Part shown: positions 7,916 to 49,439 of the stretch, piece after piece
How positions within the stretch are numbered: position 1 is the first letter of the stretch
Layout of the letters: every line of letters starts with the position of its first letter
Assembly: GCA_964016885.1 (NCBI GenBank)
Contig: OZ024743.1
Span: 55,490,001 to 55,554,000 of the forward strand
Length of the DNA stretch: 64,000 bases
Source: Eledone cirrhosa
Taxonomy: Eukaryota
Direction of reading: 5' to 3'
Notes under the pieces: model-generated
What the model saw: only the letters and a program-made list of their open reading frames with translations
What the model was told of the DNA's origin: nothing
Database searches by the model: none
Position numbers and translations under genes: made by a program

Positions 7916-7997
7916 AATATATATTATGTATTTCCGTAGAAAACGTAAAGGAAAGAAGAGTGCTATTTAATTATATACTAAACAACACAGTATAATT

Positions 7998-8069
7998 ATT
8001 CCATTACCTAAGGTTTCACGAAGTTAGACGATTCTAACAGAATCGTCCAGTTCGTTCATCAGATGAAAT
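7998..8069 (-). ncRNA. Type-I hammerhead ribozyme in an ORF-less pLTR-like remnant
   Basis: Reverse complement reads atttcat CTGATGA acgaactggacgattct-gtt-agaatcgtctaacttcgt GAAA ccttagG TA atggaat. All three stems pair and the cleavage triplet is GUA. Confidence 0.82.
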
Positions 8070-8317
8070 ATTTATGTTATGGATATCAGATATGAAATTA
8101 AAATCTATTAAATATGAAAGTGAGGCTGAATTAAAATAACGGAAAAAATACATGTACACAGAATCAGATATACATACATGCACATATACATATATACATA
8201 TATACACATACACACTCTCACACATACACACATTACGTTCATTGATTGGTGACGCGCGTTACCAATCATTGAACGTAATGAAGGCTTAATATATCATCCT
8301 TGTATCATTATATTTAT

Positions 8318-9295: not shown

Positions 9296-9451
9296 TACAT
9301 ACAGGTACACATACATATATGCACGTATCAGTTTAGCGGACGCTTATTATAACGCCGTTTTGTTCGTTTGTAAACAAACTGAACAGCCTGAATTTATGCC
9401 ATACGGTGTTAAGGCAACCACGTCACCTTTTTGTTCAACACTGACACAGGA

Positions 9452-9494
9452 ACGATGTACTAGTTTCAAGCTTGTTAGCTATCATCAGCACCGT
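9452..9494 (-). ncRNA. Inverted copy of the 9758-9800 hammerhead
   Basis: Reverse complement of 9758-9800 within the inverted duplication. Confidence 0.85.
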
Positions 9495-9757
9495 ATAACC
9501 ATCTGCCAGATAGTTGAACGTTCGAAAGTATATACTTTCCTTATGAAAATTAACGGCTGAGCAGCCTAATTTGCATATTGAGTGAGTTAAATCGGTCAGG
9601 CATACCGAAAACGATAAGTTGAAAAAAATGAAAACGAAATTTCATTTCTCACTCTTAGTATGGCACTTACTTAAATGTAAGTATGTATGTATACGTACAT
9701 ACATATATGTATACACACGTACAGTAGCATGCGTTCAACTATCTGGCAGATGGGTAT

Positions 9758-9800
9758 ACGGTGCTGATGATAGCTAACAAGCTTGAAACTAGTACATCGT
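9758..9800 (+). ncRNA. Minimal type-I hammerhead ribozyme
   Basis: acggtg CTGATGA tagct-aaca-agctt GAAA ctaG TA catcgt, with palindromic stem III. Confidence 0.85.
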
Positions 9801-9950
9801 TCCTGTGTCAGTGTTGAACAAAAAGGTGACGTGGTTGCCTTAACACCGTAATGCATAAATTCAGGCTGTTCAGTTTGTTTACAAACGAACAAAGCGGCGT
9901 TATAATAAGCGTCCGCTAAACTGATGCGTGCATATATGTATGTGTACCTG

Positions 9951-11195: not shown

Positions 11196-13599
11196 TTAAC
11201 TGTATACTTTGTGAAAAGTTCTATGGAATTTATGCAGGCAGATAGAAAACAAATCTGAGCGTCTATTTATTATAGAATCTAGGTTAGAGATAATGGTAAA
11301 TTTTTCATTTAGGCAGAGATTACAGATTTTAGATAGAGAGCTGTTCAAGTATGAGGATGCAGAAGAAATCTTCTTCCAAAAGATGGTATATTTAATGTTT
11401 TTGTCTTTTAAGGACCATATGAGTTCTGAGAGAGCAGTGTTAGTTCTTTTAAGTTTGTATTTGAAAGATGAATGATGATTATAGAGACGAGCTTTAAAAG
11501 AGGTGGAAGTGGAGCCAAAATAGGTGAAGGAATTGGTGCTAGTTATAATTTTACATTCATAAATTAAGTTTTTATCGAGGCAATGGTTGTTGAGAGGACA
11601 TTTATTTTTAATGCGGCAGTTGCAATTAGAGAGATTATTAATGAGTGATCTAGTGTTATCTATAGAAGGAATTGGATTGGAGAAGTTGTTTGCGATAGGA
11701 ATAATAGGAATAATAGTTTCTTGATTTAGAGTTGGATTATGAACATTTAGCGAAGTTGTGTTTGACGTTGTATTTGGGTTTACAGAAGTTAGCCTAGGGT
11801 TTACAATGACGTCGGGAGTACTATTACTGTTATTATGAAATTCAATATTGGAAGGAAGAGATTTAGTATTTAATATTTTGTTGTTGTGTTTAGAGATGAT
11901 GTTGGAAATATTGGAGGATGTAGAATACGAAAATTTGATGGTGTGTTTGTTAAATATTTTACTATAGATATGTGAGGGAGGGAAGCATTTATTTAAGGCA
12001 CTAAAGAATAATTTAGGAATATTATTATTAATAGAGATGGAGAAAGGAGCATTATACCAGATTATGTTTTTGTATCTAGGTCTTTTATTAAAGTTATTGG
12101 AATGATCATGATTAATTATTCTACTGTAAGATCTTCTAGAATTTGTTTCTTTACTATATTTGATTTTATCAGGATAACCGGCTTTAGAAAGCGCGTTATT
12201 ATAGTAATTGGCGTTAGCATCAAAGATGTTTTTTATTAGAAGATAGGTTATATATTCTTTTTCCAATATTATTAACTATAGCATTCTTGATATTGGTAGG
12301 ATGGTTAGATTTAAAGTTAACATAATTAAGGTTCTCATTGTTTTTATGGTAAGGGTAATATAGGCCAGTGTCAAGATTAAGAGATACATCCAAGAAATTA
12401 GCTAGTTTGATACTATTATCAAATTCAATTTTTAGGTTATGTTGGTTAAAGAGATTACGTATATTGTTCTTAATAATATTAAGTTTAACTATATTGCAAT
12501 TTAGGATAGTAAAGAGTCCATCGTCACGATAAATTCCACCGTGAAGTTGAGGAATTTTCCGACTCAAAGAGTTCAAAATGAAGATACCAATTAAATCAGT
12601 CAATTGGGATGAATCGGATGCTCCCATTGTGATGTCGAAGTTGTTAGAGGTATCGGCTCTGGTCCAATATTCGTTGTTGAACTCTAGGATGGTTTTACGT
12701 GCGGTGAGGATGATGTGAAGTTCATCTGTGGTGATGTCAGAATATTTAAGTGCGAAAGATAGAGCATTATTGAGAAGTGAAGGCGAAATGGAGGAATAGT
12801 AGCTGGCAATATCAAATTGAATAAATTTTAGTTTGTTTTTATTATCCAATTTGTTGAACCAGCCAATCACTTCAGAAGAACCAAACCATAAATTTAGGTT
12901 TAAAGAAGAGCAATTAGAACTAACCTGTGGGATAATCCTATCCAAGATGGCTTTACTAACAACCCCCAGATCAGATTTAGAGGGGGCGATTAATCTAACA
13001 GGTAGTTCAGTGCGAAAATTGTTTTTGTGATCCTTGAGATTTATCCTCGGAGTTCTTGGGAGGAATGGTTCGGTCCTTTTTTCAATGCCAAGTTTTGACA
13101 TAATCTCATAGGCTTCAAGGTTTATGCATTCTAAATTTTCATGGTTAGTTTTACGATACTTTTTCCTAAGTTCCTTTAGGATAAGGTTGTTATAATTATC
13201 CTTGGAAATACCATATAGGTTATTGGTTTTGTCAGAGTGGACTAAAACATTTTTTGAGGAATTTAGGTTAGAGATTGTGTTCTTGAGATTTACAAGGTGC
13301 TCTTGTCCTTTGTAAGGGTATCTCTTGAATTTAAGATTTTTTATTATTTTAGTTAATTCTTCCTCGAATTGTACTAGATTTTTGTTGGAAGGAGGATTTC
13401 GTCTAGAATTAAAAAGATGATCGAGGAAGTTGAGTTCTTTGGTATGAAAGTTCCCTTTTAGGCGCTGGTCATAGAAATAGGCTGTCCATCTAAGTCTTCT
13501 TACGAAGGAGTCAGTTTTTTCAATAAGAAGTTTGGTGAATTCAGATTTACCAGGTATAGGAATGTCTTTAGTTGAATTGGTTATGTTGTAATAATCCAT
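11196..13599 (-). CDS. Family A polyprotein (RT + Zn finger + GIY-YIG endonuclease, about 800 aa) split by one frameshift near 12230
   Basis: ORF 12220-13659 has STKDIP, SDKT, QFDIASYYSSI, ITMGASDS and IYRDDG. ORF 11196-12266 has [38 protein letters not shown] and CNLCLNEK..CLH. Removing one A from an A-run joins them (LSSNKNIFDANA). Likely ATG at 13599 (MDYYNIT). Confidence 0.9.
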
Positions 13600-13805
13600 G
13601 TTGTAGAAGAAGAGGTGAAGGACCATCAAAAGGTATCCAATATGAGAGTAAGCGCTCAACCGTTAAGGAGCAAGTTAATGTAGGAGGTGAGTTTTATTGT
13701 AGTACAATAAAGCAATGCAGATATCGGATAAGAAGCACTCTACAGTTTGTGGGACTGGAGTATGCATAATATAAGATCAAAAGATGGTTAAAGGAGTTCC
13801 ATATA

Positions 13806-30202: not shown

Positions 30203-30280
<78 letters not shown>

Positions 30281-30314
30281 AGATTTGAATGGATACAGTT
30301 TAGTTGAAAGGAAT

Positions 30315-30434
30315 TTATTGACACGTGTTTCTATAACAGTTACATAACCTAAAACAGCTGCTATCTACAAACTTTTAGTTATGCAGACATTCAATATTTC
30401 AATGTTATTATTTACTGTCATTTCATCAGAATAA
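30315..30434 (-). ncRNA. Inverted copy of the long-stem-II hammerhead
   Basis: Reverse complement of 30818-30937. Confidence 0.78.
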
Positions 30435-30817
30435 TATTACTGAGGACCTATTTAGTTTTTATAGAGAATATTAGGAGGGAGGGGTGAAGTTGTTAGAAGA
30501 ATAGTTGAAGGAGTGGTTTTTCGATAGCAGTGAGAATTCTTGGTGGCAGTGAGTAATTAGATTCCCATCTGTTGTTTTGACATTTTTTATAGAATATATT
30601 ATTGGTTATTTTTCTAAATCTATAGATTTAGAAAAATAACCAATAACCAATAATATATTCTATAAAAAATGTCAAAACAACAGATGGGAATCTAATTACT
30701 CACTGCCACCAAGAATTCTCACTGCTATCGAAAAACCACTCCTTCAACTATTCTTCTAACAACTTCACCCCTCCCTGCTAATATTCTCTATAAAAACTAA
30801 ATAGGTCCTCAGTAATA

Positions 30818-30937
30818 TTATTCTGATGAAATGACAGTAAATAATAACATTGAAATATTGAATGTCTGCATAACTAAAAGTTTGTAGATAGCAGCTGTTT
30901 TAGGTTATGTAACTGTTATAGAAACACGTGTCAATAA
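30818..30937 (+). ncRNA. Type-I hammerhead with a 91-nt stem II domain
   Basis: ttatt CTGATGA aatgacagt...actgttata GAAA cacgtG TC aataa. Palindromic stem III, GUC triplet. Confidence 0.78.
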
Positions 30938-31084
30938 ATTCCTTTCAGCTAAACTGTATCCATTCAAATCTTTCTATTTTTCTCCGGATTACTTTTGGAA
31001 CTACAACTGGAACCGTCGAGCAAACTCTACGTGAGCTGATAATCTACTGTGTGTAATATTTATATTACAACACAACGGAAAATA

Positions 31085-31147
<63 letters not shown>

Positions 31148-31172
31148 TGTAATAAACAACATAAGGCAATTA

Positions 31173-31229
31173 TTCCATTTACCAGTGGTTTTTTAAAACC
31201 CAACATTTTCCTTTCAATCTCAGAATGAA
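31173..31229 (-). ncRNA. Family B distal hammerhead (damaged core, GUA triplet), 3' pLTR
   Basis: Reverse complement reads ttcatt CTGAGA ... AAAA ccactgG TA aatggaa. Confidence 0.6.
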
Positions 31230-31403
31230 AAAATCGTGGTCTGTTTATTGAATTTGGATTTTACAAACAAAAATGCAATCTATATGAAAGTGAGACTGGA
31301 GAAAGAAGAAGGAAAGGAAAAATAAAATAAAAACACACATGCAAACACAAACACACACACACACACAAATACATACTTACACACACACACACATATATAT
31401 ATA

Positions 31404-31445
<42 letters not shown>

Positions 31446-32045
31446 CACTCATACATACACACACACACATATACACATATATATGTGTATATAAATACAC
31501 ACATACACATACATATACACATACATACATACGCACATAAATATCAACACATCCATACATACACATACATATATAGACACATATATATATATAGAAATAG
31601 AAATATATATATATATATATATGCATACACATACACATACATAGCCATACACACATACATATACATACATACATACATGCATACAATCATACATATATAC
31701 ACACGTACATACATACACATACATAAATGCATACATATGCATGTACAAAATTAGAAAAATATACACACACTTCTACATATTCACACACGCAAATAAATAT
31801 AAGAAAAAATATATATAAAAAATAAAATAATAAAGACTATTATACAGTTGACAGCAATACAAGCGACGAATAAATGAACAAACACGCGTGGTAAGCAATA
31901 CACACAAATGCACGTAGACATACGTACGAAAAAGTAAATACATACACACACTCTCACACATAAATATACATATACAAATACATAAACAAATACATACACA
32001 AACACACACACACACATATACATATATACACACACATATACATAT

Positions 32046-32097
<52 letters not shown>

Positions 32098-32212
32098 GCA
32101 CACACACATATACACATATATATATATACATACACACACACATACATACATAGCTATACAATTATACACATACAAATACGTACATATCACAAACACGCAC
32201 AACCAAATACAA

Positions 32213-32298
<86 letters not shown>

Positions 32299-32396
32299 AA
32301 AACTCAATCTTAGATAATTCATATGAACCTTATATTACTCCAAAATATACATATACATATATATATAGTAATGTAATAAACAACATAAGGCAATTA

Positions 32397-32456
32397 TTCC
32401 ATTCACCAGTGGTTTCTTAAAAGCAAAAAAAGTTTGCCTTCAATCATCAGAATGAA
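32397..32456 (-). ncRNA. Family B proximal hammerhead (intact core, GUG triplet), 3' pLTR
   Basis: Reverse complement reads ttcatt CTGATGA ttgaaggcaaactttttttgcttttaa GAAA ccactgG TG aatggaa. Confidence 0.75.
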
Positions 32457-32717
32457 AAATAAAACCTGGTCTATCTACATATATATATATATATACACAC
32501 ATATATATATATATATATACACATACACATACATACACATACATTTTCGTATGTGAAGGGTAAGGCAATAAGAATATATGGGGGGGGAGAGAGGGCAAAA
32601 AGACATAGGAAAAGGTGAAATATAAGGGGAGATAAGGGAGAAAAAGAATACAAGAGTACAGAACGTGGATTCAGCAGGTAAAAAAACCGTAGTAGAAGTA
32701 AAGAGCAGAGAAGGAGT

Positions 32718-34850
32718 TCAAGGCGGTTGAGTTATCATAGGAGTGTCAATCCAGTTACAGATAAGATGTGATTTCAGATGAGGACAACATCTGAAGATCT
32801 CGTTCTTTGAGTTTAGGCAAGCAGAAGTGGCTCTCAAGATTAGCAAAATCCTATATTTTTCTGTGGTACACAAAGAACAATTCTTTGTGCCCCTTTGGTA
32901 CTCCCTCGAATGGTCTAAGATAGACCAATCTATAGAGTACGGGATGTTACTATCCTTGAATTCCCACACCTTACTTGCGAGGGCCGTTGATGTTCGTTTA
33001 TCGGAGTGCTTAAAAGAAGCGACATGTGAGTAAAATCTGGTTTTAAACCTGTCCTGGGTCATGCCGACATATCGCTCACTCCTGGCTGGCTGGTTATTGA
33101 TTAACGGTGTTATTTTAGCCTCATAAACAACAGATTTGGTGTTACATTTACTCTGCAATGGGCATTCATCCGGCTTCCTTCAGCTGCATCCTGGATTTGT
33201 TGTCGTATTATTTGAACTAGTGATCTTGGACTTCATAGATGGGCAACAAGAGTAACTGATCTTAACTATGTTCCTATTAAATATTTTATAATATCTATGA
33301 TTAGGAGGAAAATGTTTGTCTAAGAGTTCAAGGAATTTCCTTCCTACATTAGTTTTGACAGATAGGGAGAAGGGGAGTGTGAACCAAATAATTTTCCTTT
33401 TCCTGTTATTGTGGTTCGTTTTAGTGGGGGGAGTAGGTAAATAAAAAATGTTTTCTGTAAAACCGCTGTTCTTAAGGGCTTTATTATAATAAGGCGCGGC
33501 TTTATTAAAAATGTCTATAGACGAAGATAAGGTAAAAATCCTACGGCTAATGTTAGGAATAAGATTATTAAAAACTATAGGGGGATGGCAAGACTCTTTG
33601 TGTATATACCTAAGATTTTCATTAGGTTTATGATAAGGTTTAAAAGAGGCGGTAAGTAGATCAAGATTAATATCAAGAAAGTTAGCATTGGTAAGGTTCG
33701 TATCTATAGTGATTTTAAGGTTAAGATTAGCAAAAGTATTGATTTAATCTTTACGGAATTTATCAAGGTTATGGCCGTTGGTGGTATGAGAAACTGCCAA
33801 TCCGTCATCACGGTATAAACCGATATTATGGGAAGGAAATTTCTCTTTGAGGGTGTGGAGAAGGAATAATCCTACTAAGTCACACACATCCGCACTGTCA
33901 TATGAAACCATTGCAACATCAAAAGAGTTTTCAGGGTTTGACTTTTTAACCCAAATATTTTCATTAGTAAAGAGTAAAGTTTTTCTAGCATGAAAGATAA
34001 TGTCTTCTTCTAATTTAGAAATATTAATGAAGGGTCTTGCAAAATCTAAGGCATTAGTTAATAAGGAAACAGTAATAGAGGGGTAAAAATCAACAATATC
34101 AAATTGGGTAAATCTACACTTATTTTTACCTTGTATATTATTAAACCAAGAAATAACAGAGGAAGTATTTAGCCACTGTGATAGGTCAGTATTAGTTCTA
34201 ATTTGGAGAATTATTTTTCTTAAGATTTTTTTACTTGCAAGGCCAACTTCGGATTTAGCCGGGTTAATCAGTCTACAACTAGGTCGATTAGTAAAGTCCA
34301 ATTTATGGTCTTTCAGGGTAATATATACTTTACGCTTAGCTAGGCTTTCAATCCGGTTGTCTATTTTTAAAGAACTAGCTAGTTCATTAGCTTCTTTATT
34401 GATAGTATTGTAGGTATTATTATTAGTTAATTGATATTTGTTGGTAATACTATTAGTTAAAAGTTGGTTATACAAAGTACTATTAACTTCAAAGAGATTT
34501 TTAGTTTTATCAGAAAGAACAAAGGTGTTTGTAGAATTTCTAAAATTAGAAATATCGTTAGATAGTTTAGTTTGAAAGTTATTATTGTACTTACGAAATT
34601 TGATATCACTAATTAGATTAACAAGGTCTAATTCGAAGTTGGCCATGTCTTTAATTCTAGGTGGATATTTACGGGATTTTATGTCAAAACAATCATTAGT
34701 ATCAGCACTGAATAGTCCATCGTAAACCATTGCCTTCCATCTCATTCTTTTAACGACTTGTTCGATTTTATCTATAAGCATTTTGGTATAAGTTGTGTTG
34801 GAAGGAGTAGGTATATTTTTGATTGAATAATCCAATTCATAAAGGTCCAT
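32718..34850 (-). pseudogene. Family B RT + GIY-YIG ORF in one frame with in-frame TAA (33744-33746) and TGA (33180-33182)
   Basis: Motifs SIKNIP, SDKT, QFDIVDFYPSI, VAMVSYDS (expected G replaced by V), LYRDDG, IIWFTLPFS, GCS*RKPDECPLQSKC, VVY..YVG, CSLCTTEK and CCPH. Manual translation is continuous across both stops. Confidence 0.9.
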
Positions 34851-35061
34851 GGTGTATGTTGGTTCAATTCCTGAAAACTGTAGAGTGCTCAACTAATCGG
34901 GCTGGAAAGAGCCAATCATATATGTAATATAGAATATGCTTCAATCAATCGGTTGGAGCTGTATAAATGAAGTAATTCCGTCGGAAAAGTCCAGGAAAAA
35001 AGAGTGCTCTATGTAGGTAACAGAGCTTAATAGTTATGTAATAAACAACATAAGGCAAGTA

Positions 35062-35120
35062 TTCCATTTACCAGTGGTTTATTAAAAGCAAAAAATTTTG
35101 CTTTCAATCATCAGAATGAA
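35062..35120 (-). ncRNA. Family B distal hammerhead (G12 lost, GUA triplet), upstream pLTR
   Basis: Reverse complement reads ttcatt CTGATGA ttgaaagcaaaattttttgcttttaa TAAA ccactgG TA aatggaa. Confidence 0.65.
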
Positions 35121-35231
35121 CAAATCCTGGTCTGTTTATTGAATTTGGATTTTAAAAACAAAATTGCAATCTATATGAAAGTGAGGCTGGAGAAAGAAGA
35201 AGGAAAGGAAAAATAAAATAAAAACACACAT

Positions 35232-35308
<77 letters not shown>

Positions 35309-35491
35309 TGCATACATACACACAGATATATATATACATACACTCATACATACACACACACATATACACATATATATGTGTATATAAATACACACATACA
35401 TACGCACATAAATATCAACACATCCATACATACACATACATATATACAACCACACACACATATATACACACATATATATATAGAAATAGAA

Positions 35492-35530
<39 letters not shown>

Positions 35531-35817
35531 TACACATACACATACATAGCCATATACACATACATATACATACATACATACATGCACACAATCATACCTA
35601 TATACACACGTACATACATACACATACATAAATGCATACATATGCATGTACAAAATTAGAAAAATATACACACACCTCTACATATTCACACACGCAAATA
35701 AATATATGAAAAAATATATATAAAAAATAAAATAGTAAAGACTATTATACAGTTGACAGCGGTACAAGCGACGAATAAATGAACAAACACGCGTGGTAAG
35801 CAATACACACAAATGCA

Positions 35818-37547
35818 TTTTCGATAGAAGAAATAACCTAAATAGCAGTGGAGAGTCGACCAGGAGGTGCAACTGTCCTGATAGATCCATTTGCCCCCTC
35901 GACAATAGATGCAGAGACCGTAATGTGATCTACCAGTGCAACGTGAGGACGGACACCTCCAACAAAGCTTATATAGGACTAACCGCATGTGACTTCAAGA
36001 CCCGGCTATACCAACATAGACATACCTTCCGAAACCCGGCCCGGCGTCACGCCACTACACTTTCGGGCCACATATGGGACCTCAAGGACAACAACATTAC
36101 CTATGATCTCACTTGGAGATTACTGTCCAGAGCCAGCTCTTACACGGGAGGACGCCGTCCGTGCAATTTATGCTCGGAGGAAACTTTACAAATGTTGTTT
36201 TCGACGGACCAACTCCTAAACAAGAAAGATGAACTGGTTACTGCATGTAAACATAGATTGCGTAGGACTTACCTCGCCCTCAAACCCCATAATGACCCGG
36301 GGGGGGGTAGACTAGGGCTATAACACCCCACTTGCCGATTTTGTAATGGGTAACCCCTGCTTGCCAAGGGAGACGTAAGATCTTTTTATTCTTTTATCGC
36401 TTCCTCTATATTTCCTCCTTCCCCCCATCCCTCCCTAGTCCTTCTACCCCAGTTCTTTTTCTTTGTCGGCGTATTTTTCTCGCCCACCCGAGGCAGCCCT
36501 TTGGCCCCTTGTAGCCTCAGTACCCCCACCCCCTCCCCTAGTCTATGATAGATTTGACGGACTCCGCTTTTTATAGCAGTTGTGTTAGACCTCGGATACT
36601 TGCCCCCTTATCCGACCGCTCCCCTTTTTTCCGTGCCTTCTATATTTCTTAGTGGCACCTCTGCCTTAATTTCTCGTTTCAGTATTTCTTTCTTTTCTTT
36701 TCTTTTGGGCGGGGTGGATTCTGAATTTTTTTTTCCGTATTCTACTTTTGCCTCGTACGAACTTTCATGTAGCTTGTATAAGAACTTTTGTAGCGTGACG
36801 GTACCATTAGAGTTAGCATTAGTATATTTTTTTCGGGACTCAGAATTATTATCTCGTACTAGTTTACTTTTCTGCACTGGGTGGTTGCTGGCCTTGTGCC
36901 CGGGGTAGAAACCTTTATTAATTATTTCGTGGTAGTTTCTTTAGTATTTTGGCCCCTTTGTTGACCCGTCACCGTATGATATACGTACTTATACCTCTTA
37001 AAAGGGTCCTTTCCTATTCCGTCCCACCTAGTTTATTTACTTATTTTTTTATTTCTTTATTTCTTTATTTCTTTATTTCCTTATTTCTTTCTTTATTTCT
37101 TTCTTTCTTTATTTATTTATTTATCTAGCCTAGCAATAGCTAGAGACTTAGGTCGTAGAAATTGCTTATATTTTTTCTTTACATTTATTCGCTTTTTATC
37201 ACTCTCAGTATTTTTTTTTCATATATATATTTTTACCCTTCATTGTTCTACTTACCGTTTCGACTTCCTCCCCCTCCCCCTCCCTAGTATCTTCTTTGAC
37301 CTCATGCCCAGCTGTAGCCGGCACTACCAACGCTTGATTGGGTCTACTCCACCCCTCCCCTTTTTCTCCTACTGGCAAGTTTAGCCACCCTCTCCCCCAC
37401 TAATTTGCCATCACAGAATTACTACTAACTTGTAACCAATCCTTGTGACAATCACTTTGACCATATATGGAATTACCCCTTGAGAAGCTCGGCTATTTAT
37501 ATACCAGGATAAATTTTCATTTAGTCCAGAATTAGCCGTCGAAACGC
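35818..37547 (+). mobile_element. 5'-truncated Penelope-like family C (GIY-YIG end 35818-36323 plus about 1.2 kb 3' region), nested antisense in the family B upstream pLTR
   Basis: CNCPDRSICPLDNRC, VIY..YIG, FKTRLYQH and CNLCSEE..CKH. It interrupts a segment that is contiguous at 31912-32155. Confidence 0.88.
37476..37547 (+). ncRNA. 3'-truncated hammerhead with U3-A8 variant core at the family C end
   Basis: ccc TTGAGAA gctcggcta...tagccgtc GAAA cgc, followed by the junction with host sequence. Confidence 0.55.
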
Positions 37548-37606
37548 ATATACAATTATACACATACAAATACGTACATATCACAAACACGCACAACCAA
37601 ATACAA

Positions 37607-37714
<108 letters not shown>

Positions 37715-37812
37715 AAAACTCAATCTTAGATAATTCATATGAACCTTATATTACTCCAAAATATACATATACATATATATATAGTAATGTAATAAACAAC
37801 ATAAGGCAATTA

Positions 37813-37872
37813 TTCCATTCACCAGTGGTTTCTTAAAAGCAAAAAAATGTTGCCTTCAATCATCAGAATGAA
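37813..37872 (-). ncRNA. Family B proximal hammerhead (intact core, GUG triplet), upstream pLTR
   Basis: Reverse complement reads ttcatt CTGATGA ttgaaggcaacatttttttgcttttaa GAAA ccactgG TG aatggaa. Confidence 0.75.
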
Positions 37873-38130
37873 AAAAAAACAAAAAAACCTGGTCTATCTA
37901 CATATATATATATATACGAACATATATATATATATATATATATACACATACACATACATACACATACATTTTGGTATGTGAAGGGTAAGGCAATAAGAAT
38001 ATATGGGGGGGGGGAGACATAGGAAAAGGTGAAACATAAGGGGAGATAAGGGAGAAAAAGAATACAAGAGTACAGAACGTGGATTCAGCAGGTAAAAAAC
38101 CGTAGTAGAAGTAAAGAGCAGAGAAGGAGT

Positions 38131-38629
38131 TCAATGCGCTTGAGTTATCATAGGAATGTCAATCCAGTTACAGATCAGATGTGATTTCAGATGAGGACAA
38201 CATCTGAAGATCTCGGTCTTTGAGTTTAGGCAAGCAGAAGTGGCTCTCAAGTTTAGCAAAATCCTATATTTTTCTGTGGTACACAAAGAACAATTCTTTG
38301 TGCCCCTTTGGTACTCCCTCGAATGGTCTAAGATAGACCAATCTATAGAGTACGGGATGTTACTATCCTTGAATTCCCACACCTTACTTGCGAGGGCCGT
38401 TGATGCTCGTTTATCGGAGTGCTTAAAAGAAGCGACATGTGAGTAAAATCTGGTTTTAAACATGTCCTGGGTCATGCCGACATATCGCTCACTCCTGGCT
38501 GGCTGGTTATTGATTAACGGTGTTATTTTAGCCTCATAAACAACAGATTTGGTGTTACATTTACCCTGCAATGAGCATTCATCCGGCTTCCTGCAACTGC
38601 ATCCTGGATTTGTTCTCTTATGATTTGAA

Positions 38630-38630
<1 letters not shown>
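38131..38630 (-). pseudogene. Family B endonuclease-coding end duplicated in the upstream repeat
   Basis: NPGCSCRKPDECSLQGKC..YVG..CSLCTTEK, nearly identical to 32718-33210. Confidence 0.88.
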
Positions 38631-38692
<62 letters not shown>

Positions 38693-38927
38693 AAAAGAGC
38701 CAGGACCCCGACGGCTTGGCTCCGGCCGTTCCGACAGCTAGATATATGTAGTTCAAGGAAACGACAAAACAGAGGTACAAAATGTCTTAGTCTCACGCTT
38801 TATATGGAAAAGAGGAAAGAACGTTCGACGTGTTGGGCTTTATCTCTTCTTCAGGATTACAACAAGACAGCATCACAATGGATACATACAGAAAATAAAA
38901 GGTAGTCCAAGTATAAAAAAAAGAAAA

Positions 38928-47348: not shown

Positions 47349-48720
47349 CATATAAGATCAAAAGATGGTTAAAAGAGTTCCATGTATTTTATTATGCGCA
47401 TTTCAAAAACAAATATCATCATGCAATAATATTTGTGTTTTCAAAGACGAATGATGATTATAAAGACGAGCTTTAAATAAATGCTTCCCTCCCTCACATA
47501 TCTATAGTAAAATATTTAACAAACACACTATAAAATTTTCCTATTCGACATCCTCCAACATTTCCAACATTATCTCTAAACACAACAATAAAATACTAAA
47601 TACTAAATCTCTTCCTTCCAACACTGAATATCATAATAATAGTAATAATACTCCCGACGTCATTGTAAACTCTAGGCTAATTTCTGCAAACCCAAATACA
47701 ACGTCAAATAAAACTTCGCTAAATGTTCTTAATCCCATTCTAAATCAAGAAACTATTATTCCTATCGCAAATAACTTCTCCAATCCAATTCCTTCTATAG
47801 ATAACATTAGGTCACTCGTTAATAATCTCTCTAATCGCAATTGTAATTGCCCTGTTAAAAATAAATGTCCTCTCAACAACTATTGTCTTGATAAAAACTT
47901 AATCTACGAATGTAAAGTTATAACTTACACCAATTCCTTCACCTATTTTGGCTCCACTTCCACCTCCTTTAAAGCTCGTCTTTATAATCATCATTCGTCT
48001 TTTAAATACCAACTTAAAAGAACCAACACGGCTCTCTCAGAACTCATATGGTCCTTGAAAGACAAAACTATTAAATATGACATCTCTTGGAAAAAGGTTT
48101 CTTCTGCTTCTCCATACTTGAGCAGTTCTCTATCCAAGACTTGCAATCTCTGTCTAAATGAAAAATTTACCATTATATCTAATTTAGATTCTATAATAAA
48201 TAGACGCACTGACTTGTTTTCTCTCTGCTTGCATAAATTCCACAGAACATTCCACAAAGTATACAGCTAATATCCAATACTTTATCAATTTAGAATCCTT
48301 TTCTCAAAGGCACACACATATATATATATATATATATACTTCTTTAAAAATATACCCATCTTTCTACCTTATTTCAAAGTTATTTATTATACATTATATA
48401 ATACTTGTTACTCATTCTATATCACTCCTATTTATCACTTCCCTTTCTTTCTTTTCCTTTTCTTTTCTTTTTCTTTTAATTTCTAACCCCTAATCTGTAC
48501 CTTTTCTCACTGTGCCTAACATAGAAACAATTATTACACAATACAATATATTCTTACCTTATATCACCTTGAAAAAATCCTTCGTAAACATAAACACATT
48601 TTTTTGACGTTAGATTATTCATCCTCAATTCATTATTTTTTTCTCCCTTGCATCTAACTTATTCATGCTCATCTCACAATATATCCTTACTTACATTACT
48701 TTTTTTTTTTTTTAATAATA

Positions 48721-49244: not shown

Positions 49245-49313
49245 TATTTTATCTGATGAAAACAAATATTATTGCATGATGATATTTGTTTTTGAAATGC
49301 GCATAATAAAATA
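49245..49313 (+). ncRNA. Family A hammerhead in the diverged copy
   Basis: tattttat CTGATGA aaacaaatattattgcatgatgatatttgttttt GAAA tgcgca TA ataaaata. Substitutions relative to the first copy keep stems I and II paired. Confidence 0.87.
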
Positions 49314-49439
49314 CATGGAACTCTTTTAACCATCTTTTGATCTTATATATTATGTATACTCCAGTCCTACAAACTGTAGAGTGCTTCTTATCCGATATCT
49401 GCATTGCTTTATTGTACTACAATAAAACTCACCTCCTAC

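What the first reader, a model, noticed from the sequence alone, without database searches (positions are those of the whole stretch)
31173..32456. Candidate split enzyme/substrate hammerhead pair in the family B pLTR
Seen: each family B pLTR carries two hammerhead copies, about 1.2 kb apart in the 3' pLTR. Both proximal copies (32397, 37813) have an intact CUGAUGA/GAAA core but a GUG triplet. Both distal copies (31173, 35062) have GUA but have lost G12, to A in one and U in the other, and one also lost a base from CUGAUGA. Stem III (ACCACUGGU) is self-complementary with only a 1-3 nt loop. Established: NUG triplets are essentially not cleaved, and minimal hammerheads with palindromic stem III work as double hammerheads in which one unit's core cleaves the other unit's triplet. 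Inference: neither copy works alone, but the pair could cut only at the distal site, about 35 nt from the element's 3' end. That would be a division of labour letting the long microsatellite-filled pLTR stay in the RNA.
Basis: partly seen in the sequence, partly recalled or inferred. Interest (0 to 1): 0.8.

Follow-up and report, generated by a model that had tools for sequence, protein, structure and literature searches.

The report
Retrotransposon with self-inserted, uncuttable hammerhead
A jumping gene pasted a copy of its own self-cutting RNA motif into itself, and its descendants fixed a change that likely makes the extra copy uncuttable; the damage to the original motif that suggested a 'split' ribozyme is decay of this one genomic copy, not a feature of the family.

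Summary
The four hammerhead units are real and as described, but the split enzyme/substrate reading fails its own test. Across the genome the distal hammerhead is canonical: G12 is intact in 199 of 206 units and N17 is A in 206 of 209. Only 5 of 52 pairs show the split pattern, the rate of ordinary decay. The proximal GUG is a true lineage trait (107 of 109). The genome holds the fossil series. First come elements with an empty (TA)n site, then elements with a ~104-nt 5'-truncated copy of the element's own 3' end inserted there with GUA, then GUG descendants. A tree built without the proximal unit, and diverged relatives, support this order. The element is a Hydra-clade Penelope-like retrotransposon. 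Most likely the extra copy was made uncuttable and rides along, while the distal ribozyme does the usual job. No cleavage or RNA data were available.

The parts
32718..34892 (-). RT + C-terminal GIY-YIG ORF of a Hydra-clade Penelope-like element; two in-frame stops (dead copy)
   Evidence: RWK at 51, DKT at 128, YRDD at 360, CxxC at 672, CxH at 703; the linker CxCx5C is broken by a stop here and intact in the 38131-38799 fragment
31173..31230 (-). distal (original, terminal) type I hammerhead of the 3' pLTR; GUA; locally decayed (8 differences in 108 nt from reference L014, including G12 to A and a 1-nt core deletion)
31141..31179 (-). 39 nt between the distal cut site and terminus 1, followed by (TA)n target
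   Evidence: 91 of 107 terminal units are followed by at least 3 AT units
31244..32364 (-). microsatellite-rich pLTR spacer, present also in elements that lack the proximal hammerhead
32365..32472 (-). proximal unit: 5'-truncated copy of the element's own 3' end inserted into a (TA)n tract of the pLTR; hammerhead 32397-32457, intact core, GUG
35062..35121 (-). distal hammerhead of the 5' pLTR; GUA; G12 to U (3 differences in 108 nt from reference L014)
34961..35029 (-). 69-nt extension between terminus 1 and terminus 2 of the family; here it runs on into the ORF
   Evidence: 83 of 97 read-on units stop 60-74 nt in, the examples printed mostly at 69 and followed by (TA)n
37781..37895 (-). proximal unit of the 5' pLTR; hammerhead 37813-37873, intact core, GUG
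35030..38632 (-). 5' pLTR (ORF 3' fragment, proximal unit, spacer, distal unit), interrupted by a nested element at 35818-37548
   Evidence: self-BLAST: 37549-38632 matches 32155-33219 (93%); 35030-35817 matches 31141-31912 (89%)

Best explanation
This is a dead copy of a Hydra-clade Penelope-like retrotransposon whose pLTR carries its ordinary terminal hammerhead plus a second one that arrived, as the copy series indicates, when the element's own 3' ~104 nt retro-inserted into a (TA)n tract inside the pLTR and later fixed GUA to GUG, which likely made it uncuttable. Shown by the calls: the empty, filled-GUA and filled-GUG states and their order; a canonical distal core in the family; the window's distal lesions at the background decay rate. 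Inferred: the distal hammerhead is the working ribozyme and acts, like other PLE hammerheads, mainly as a double hammerhead; G17 spread because, or at least with the effect that, it removed a second cut 1.2 kb inside the transposition unit; the proximal copy is now mostly a passenger that may pair opportunistically. In a double hammerhead only a triplet change, not a core change, protects a site, and a triplet change is the one that was fixed.
For: Empty site: 25 elements have the same (TA)n flanks and no unit; 6 of 6 that span the 3' UTR to the distal unit have no other same-strand unit. Filled with GUA: 8 units (2 in L104, 6 in S2). Filled with GUG: 107 of 109 units of later subfamilies. The insert ends at the family's terminus 1, is followed by (TA)n, and keeps the older letter at its 5' junction that distal units later changed. 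A FastTree tree of 74 copies built without the proximal unit gives a ladder S0/S1, S2, S4, S6, S7, S8; two diverged relatives are S0-like at 15 of 19 and 10 of 14 informative sites. Distal unit: 3 lineage-level changes in 107 sites (one upstream, N7, loop II), none in the core; the sister subfamily changes G-U to A-U and G-U to G-C in the stems; the lone distal unit folds unconstrained into the type I hammerhead, -11.9 kcal/mol. The proximal unit changed at about 10 of 101 sites, no slower than flanks (6 of 93), and both stem II changes weaken it. NUG sites are not cleaved (review PMC3138052, passages).
Against: The proximal core, stem I and stem III (32 sites) show no lineage-level change while N7 changed twice (p about 0.035 by permutation; 0.04-0.20 by Poisson at three baseline rates), which hints at selection on the proximal core. 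That G17 was selected rather than drifted is not shown: about 4 changes fell on the unit over those branches, and the intermediate S3 is one copy (L161). No RNA or cleavage data exist here. In the one PLE tested, ribozyme cleavage was not needed for insertion in vitro (PMC11167929). Proximal samples came from similarity searches, so they are not a census.
Confidence: 0.6

Rival explanations
1. Asymmetric double hammerhead: the self-inserted GUG copy has been kept as a catalysis-only partner. Its core cuts the distal GUA in cis 1.2 kb away, while its own G17 pairs with the distal C3 and cannot be cut.
For: Co-folding gives the double hammerhead as the minimum-energy form, -35.0 kcal/mol against -26.0 for two monomers and -32.8 for distal plus distal. 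In whole 1.3-1.5 kb pLTR RNAs the double form beats two monomers in 8 of 8 copies (1.9-6.4 kcal/mol) and is the unconstrained optimum in 2 of 8 (8 folded of 18 eligible). No lineage-level change in 32 constrained sites; N7 went U to G to A. PLE hammerheads with palindromic stem III are reported to work as dimers (PMC4209133; review PMC6765202).
Against: The conservation signal is marginal (p 0.035-0.20). Empty-site elements and the sister subfamily spread without a near partner. The distal core is not relaxed in GUG lineages (46 of 52 intact against 16 of 18). One proximal stem II pair is broken in subfamily S8 without compensation. No convergence in two other hammerhead families of the window: 1 of 30 and 0 of 30 loci have two same-strand units. 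The energy gain holds for any two copies of a palindromic stem III.
Confidence: 0.3
2. One reading: the family has fixed a triplet-dead proximal unit and a core-dead distal unit, so only the pair can cut.
For: Both distal copies in the window are hit at G12; proximal GUG is fixed.
Against: G12 is intact in 199 of 204 distal units outside the window; the split pattern occurs in 5 of 52 pairs, with scattered lesions; the two G12 changes are to different bases.
Confidence: 0.02
3. Locus-specific selection: both distal G12 changes were favoured here because a host transcript crossing the insertion would otherwise be cut.
For: A double hit at the same core position is uncommon: about 0.02 given the two copies' divergence, about 0.0006 for G12 named in advance.
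Against: The genome holds well over a thousand distal units, so several such loci are expected by chance; no host gene over this site was shown; the 31173 copy is decayed throughout.
Confidence: 0.05

Closest known systems
Hydra-clade Penelope-like elements (Craig et al. 2021, PMC8557442)
   Same: Single ORF with RT and C-terminal GIY-YIG; RWK, DKT, CxCx5C, CxxC and CxH motifs; (TA)n targeting; type I hammerhead with palindromic stem III near the 3' end; inverted and partial-tandem copies.
   Different: The paper's table lists one sense hammerhead for each of 25 Hydra families, all cleaving after A, U or C. This lineage has two per pLTR, one with G17, a pLTR of over 1.5 kb and a 69-nt tail.
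Minimal dimeric hammerheads of PLEs and metazoan retrozymes (Cervera and de la Pena 2014, PMC4209133; Cervera and de la Pena 2020, PMC7229834)
   Same: Short palindromic helix III, long helix II, predicted double-hammerhead fold.
   Different: The dimers described in the parts read are of like, cleavable units; here the two units differ at the triplet. Stem III has two G-C pairs beyond A15.1-U16.1 and a 3-nt loop, so some monomer activity is possible.
Poseidon element PAc of the green anole (Frangieh et al. 2024, PMC11167929)
   Same: Two 3' termini downstream of the hammerhead, read there as two internal reverse-transcription starts.
   Different: The tail is 30-40 bp there and 69 nt here; PAc has one hammerhead per pLTR, protein-assisted and dispensable for insertion in vitro.

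Membership tests
Hydra-clade PLE | single ORF, RT with C-terminal GIY-YIG endonuclease | tested here: met
Hydra-clade PLE | RWK motif and DKG modified to DKT | tested here: met
   RWK at 51, DKT at 128; definition from PMC8557442 section 11
Hydra-clade PLE | CxCx5C linker; CxxC and CxH in the endonuclease | tested here: met
   CSCRKPDEC in the 38131-38799 frame and in L092, CSLC at 672, CPH at 703; the linker is broken by a stop in the main copy
Hydra-clade PLE | insertion into (TA)n; pLTRs; canonical hammerhead | tested here: met
   91 of 107 terminal units are followed by AT repeats; pLTRs; hammerhead
Hydra-clade PLE | placement in the Hydra clade on an RT tree | not tested
   no reference proteins were aligned; the assignment rests on motifs
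Type I hammerhead ribozyme (distal unit, family state) | CUGANGA / GAAA core, three stems, NUH triplet | tested here: met
   core intact in 160 of 186 units, N17 = A in 206 of 209; unconstrained fold; not met in the window's two decayed copies
Type I hammerhead ribozyme (proximal unit) | NUH triplet | tested here: not met
   GUG in 107 of 109 units of subfamilies S3-S8; GUA in the 8 units of S1-S2
Type I hammerhead ribozyme | self-cleavage | not testable with these tools
   no assay possible
   199 of 206 G12 intact; 5 of 52 pairs show the pattern
Asymmetric double hammerhead | proximal core and stems I and III under purifying selection | tested here: inconclusive
   0 changes in 32 sites, p 0.035-0.20
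Asymmetric double hammerhead | dimer fold favoured in the pLTR RNA | tested here: inconclusive
   better than two monomers in 8 of 8 copies, overall optimum in 2 of 8; prediction only

The most novel reading that the evidence does not exclude
A natural asymmetric double hammerhead arose in this lineage in traceable steps: self-insertion of a second ribozyme, loss of its cut site by A17G, and retention of its core as a dedicated in-cis enzyme for the terminal site.
Probability: 0.3. Interest if true: 0.65.

Novelty: new variant of a known kind. Interest (0 to 1): 0.38.

Why it matters
What hammerheads do in Penelope-like elements is still open: PMC8557442 calls it unclear, and PMC11167929 found cleavage dispensable in vitro. 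This genome holds a natural three-step series: no second ribozyme, a cleavable one, and an uncleavable one. Each state amplified, so each can be taken straight to a cleavage assay. That the fixed change hit the triplet and spared the core is what dimer-mode cleavage in vivo would predict. If the proximal core proves necessary, it is a natural enzyme-only ribozyme strand.

Tried and rejected
Rfam scan: only microsatellite-driven miRNA matches below their gathering scores in the 150 rows shown. Pfam: no significant hit for the element's frames. Cleavage footprint in DNA: none of 33 5' breakpoints in distal units falls at the cut site; the nearest lie 3 nt upstream and 2 nt downstream, so no support for templates that start at the cut. 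Chimeras of a proximal 5' half with a distal tail, expected from circles cut at both sites: none among 341 units (weak, as double-GUA elements are few). Gene conversion between the two units as the cause of proximal conservation: 1 shared private change in 61 pairs against about 0.74 expected, so not supported. Convergence in two other hammerhead families: 1 of 30 and 0 of 30 loci. Short graph distance between the units in the folded spacer (16 steps): set aside, since RNA ends are close in most predicted folds (recalled). An exact genome-wide count of triplet and core states was not obtained; counts are from fetched loci. Papers not held: Lunse et al. 2017 and two 1989 stem III papers. Earlier findings of the scan: none returned.

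Full report
Observation. The region 31141-38632 is one partial-tandem Penelope-like element on the minus strand: a 5' pLTR (35030-38632, with a nested element at 35818-37548), an ORF (34892-32718) and a 3' pLTR ending at 31141 in (TA)n. Each pLTR has two hammerhead units. The proximal ones (32397, 37813) have CUGAUGA, GAAA and GUG. The distal ones (31173, 35062) have GUA with G12 changed to A and to U, and the first also lacks one core base. The ORF has two in-frame stops, so this is a dead copy.

Identity. The frame carries RWK, DKT, YRDD, CxxC and CxH, and the linker CxCx5C is intact in the second ORF fragment. These are the marks given for the Hydra clade in PMC8557442 (section 11 read; passages), as is (TA)n targeting: 91 of 107 terminal units are followed by AT repeats. 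No tree against reference proteins was made and Pfam gave nothing significant. The host was not identified.

Family test of the distal unit. The genome (G000, 3.0 Gb) has 1,673 exact matches to a 36-nt distal tail. I took the first 100 listed places, all on contig C1 (30 as loci, 70 by coordinates); these are unbiased for the core because the pattern lies downstream of it. To these I added 30 loci each from similarity searches. From these 232 loci and the window, 341 de-duplicated units were aligned: 215 were classed distal, 120 proximal, and 6 had a proximal 5' junction without the proximal flank and were left out of both tallies. Distal G12 is G in 199 of 206 readable units, N17 is A in 206 of 209, and the core is intact in 160 of 186 full-length units. 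Core mismatches (1.55%) match those of the tail (1.39%). In the earlier subset drawn only from loci, G12 was intact in 113 of 114. The only core position with subfamily alleles is N7, the free one (U 97, G 87, C 6). Distal cores are as often intact beside a GUG partner (46 of 52) as in elements without one (16 of 18). A sister subfamily (30 loci; about 78% identical upstream) keeps core, stem III and GUA, with pair-preserving stem changes. The distal hammerhead is therefore canonical and conserved, and the window's lesions are decay. The chance that both window copies share a damaged core site is about 0.02 given their divergence, unremarkable among more than a thousand units.

Origin of the proximal unit. 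Anchoring on the flank downstream of the proximal site gave 156 sites, of which 142 could be staged and 14 were truncated or unclassifiable. S0 (25) has the same (TA)n tract and no unit; six S0 copies span the 3' UTR to the distal unit with no hammerhead between. S1 (2 units, one locus) has a unit identical in kind to the distal one, with GUA. S2 (6) has GUA and two new changes. S3 (1 copy) has GUG and an intermediate flank. S4 (40, the window's type), S5 (2), S6 (8), S7 (23) and S8 (35) have GUG in all but two copies. The unit starts about 65 nt upstream of the cut site, ends at the family's terminus 1 and is followed by (TA)n, like any 5'-truncated insertion of this family. A tree of the 74 staged copies with at least 250 nt of ORF, built without the proximal unit and rooted on an S0 copy, gives the ladder S0/S1, S2, S4, S6, S7, S8 (many supports are modest). 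Two diverged relatives share the S0 state at 15 of 19 and 10 of 14 sites. So the second hammerhead is a self-insertion that came in cleavable and fixed A17G afterwards. The long microsatellite spacer is older than the insertion, so the pair is not what lets it persist. Stage numbers reflect my searches, not abundance; in the unbiased loci there were 6 empty, 2 GUA and 9 GUG sites, plus 3 unstaged.

Is the proximal core kept? Along the series the proximal unit changed at about 10 of 101 sites: one upstream, two in stem II (A-U to G-U; a C-G pair broken), N7 twice, N17, and the rest in the tail. None fell in the 11 core, 14 stem I or 7 stem III positions. By permutation within the unit p is about 0.035; by Poisson at baseline rates of 0.05, 0.067 and 0.10 per site it is 0.20, 0.12 and 0.04. 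The first N7 change parallels one in the distal unit, but copy pairs show no excess of shared changes (1 against 0.74). This is a hint, not a result. Folding: the lone distal unit folds as a type I hammerhead; in the lone proximal unit G17 pairs with C3; the two together fold as a double hammerhead with the proximal-core/distal-GUA junction open (-35.0 against -26.0 kcal/mol). In whole pLTR RNAs the double form beats two monomers in 8 of 8 copies folded (of 18 eligible) and is the free optimum in 2. Co-transcriptional folding was not modelled. Two other hammerhead families in the window show no such pairing (1 of 30 and 0 of 30 loci).

Mechanism. The family has two termini, 39 and 108 nt downstream of the distal GUA (83 of 97 read-on units stop at the second), like the two internal reverse-transcription starts of PAc (PMC11167929). 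Every copy that includes the distal hammerhead was therefore templated across that site, uncut or re-ligated. If cleavage matters, it more likely sets the 5' end of a unit-length RNA or yields a circle, as proposed in PMC4209133, than trims a 3' end (inference). A second cleavable site 1.2 kb inside the unit would split such a template. In a double hammerhead a site is cut by the partner's core, so only a triplet change protects it (established topology; PMC4209133 figure 1 legend and text). A17G is that change, which fits selection but is one event and could be drift. I put 0.6 on a silenced passenger, 0.3 on a retained enzyme-only partner, 0.05 on local selection and 0.02 on the full split.

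Literature seen. PMC4209133: parts 1-2 of 4. PMC11167929: parts 1-2 of 4. PMC8557442: passages, section 11, a supplement search and part 2 of 59 of the supplement; its table has one sense hammerhead, cleaving after A, U or C, for each of 25 Hydra families. bioRxiv 10.64898/2026.07.22.740005: part 1 of 5 (supplements closed). PMC3138052, PMC7229834, PMC6765202, PMC3088659: passages. Lunse et al. 2017, on dimeric PLE hammerhead variants, was not held and could bear on novelty. Recalled and unverified: a 3-bp stem III with a 3-nt loop can cleave as a monomer, and GUG cleavage was once reported in a virusoid context (Sheldon and Symons 1989). Seven searches turned up no description of a GUG second hammerhead in a pLTR; the library lacks most subscription papers.

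Verdict. This is a new variant of a known kind, interest 0.38.

Noticed in passing
window 34961-35029; family-wide: The family has two 3' termini 69 nt apart, both followed by (TA)n (83 of 97 read-on units stop at the second); this tail is longer than the 30-40 bp reported for PLEs.
   Followed up: partly
both hammerhead units, family-wide: Loop II and the central C of the stem III palindrome are hypervariable across subfamilies (C to T in 9 of 109 proximal and 6 of 207 distal units); N7 changed repeatedly at subfamily level. Hairpin-loop mutability or tolerance in a dimer would both fit.
   Followed up: partly
window 7990-8075 (-): Intact type I hammerhead of a related family (palindromic stem III, GUA, long stem II); 2,117 first-look candidates in the genome.
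   Followed up: partly
window 9450-9500 (-) and 9756-9810 (+): Inverted pair of another intact minimal hammerhead with a two-base stem III insert and GUA.
   Followed up: no
window 49245-49315 (+): Hammerhead with AUA triplet and GCGC palindrome in a young family (copies 97-100% identical, 148 candidates).
   Followed up: partly
window 35818-37548 (+): Nested fragment of another element with a GIY-YIG-like frame (35757-36323) inside the 5' pLTR spacer.
   Followed up: no
window 30275-30977: Near-perfect 700-nt inverted repeat (97%) next to the element's 3' end, flanked by (TA)n.
   Followed up: no
L268:655-753 and 1522-1621: Two same-strand GUA hammerheads 870 nt apart in the 8070 family, a single case among 30 loci.
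   Followed up: no
L161: Both units of one element share the same core change (G5 to A); a single case, at chance level.
   Followed up: yes
window 11196-13662 (-) and 47464-48270 (+): Frames of a second RT/GIY-YIG family with similar motifs.
   Followed up: no
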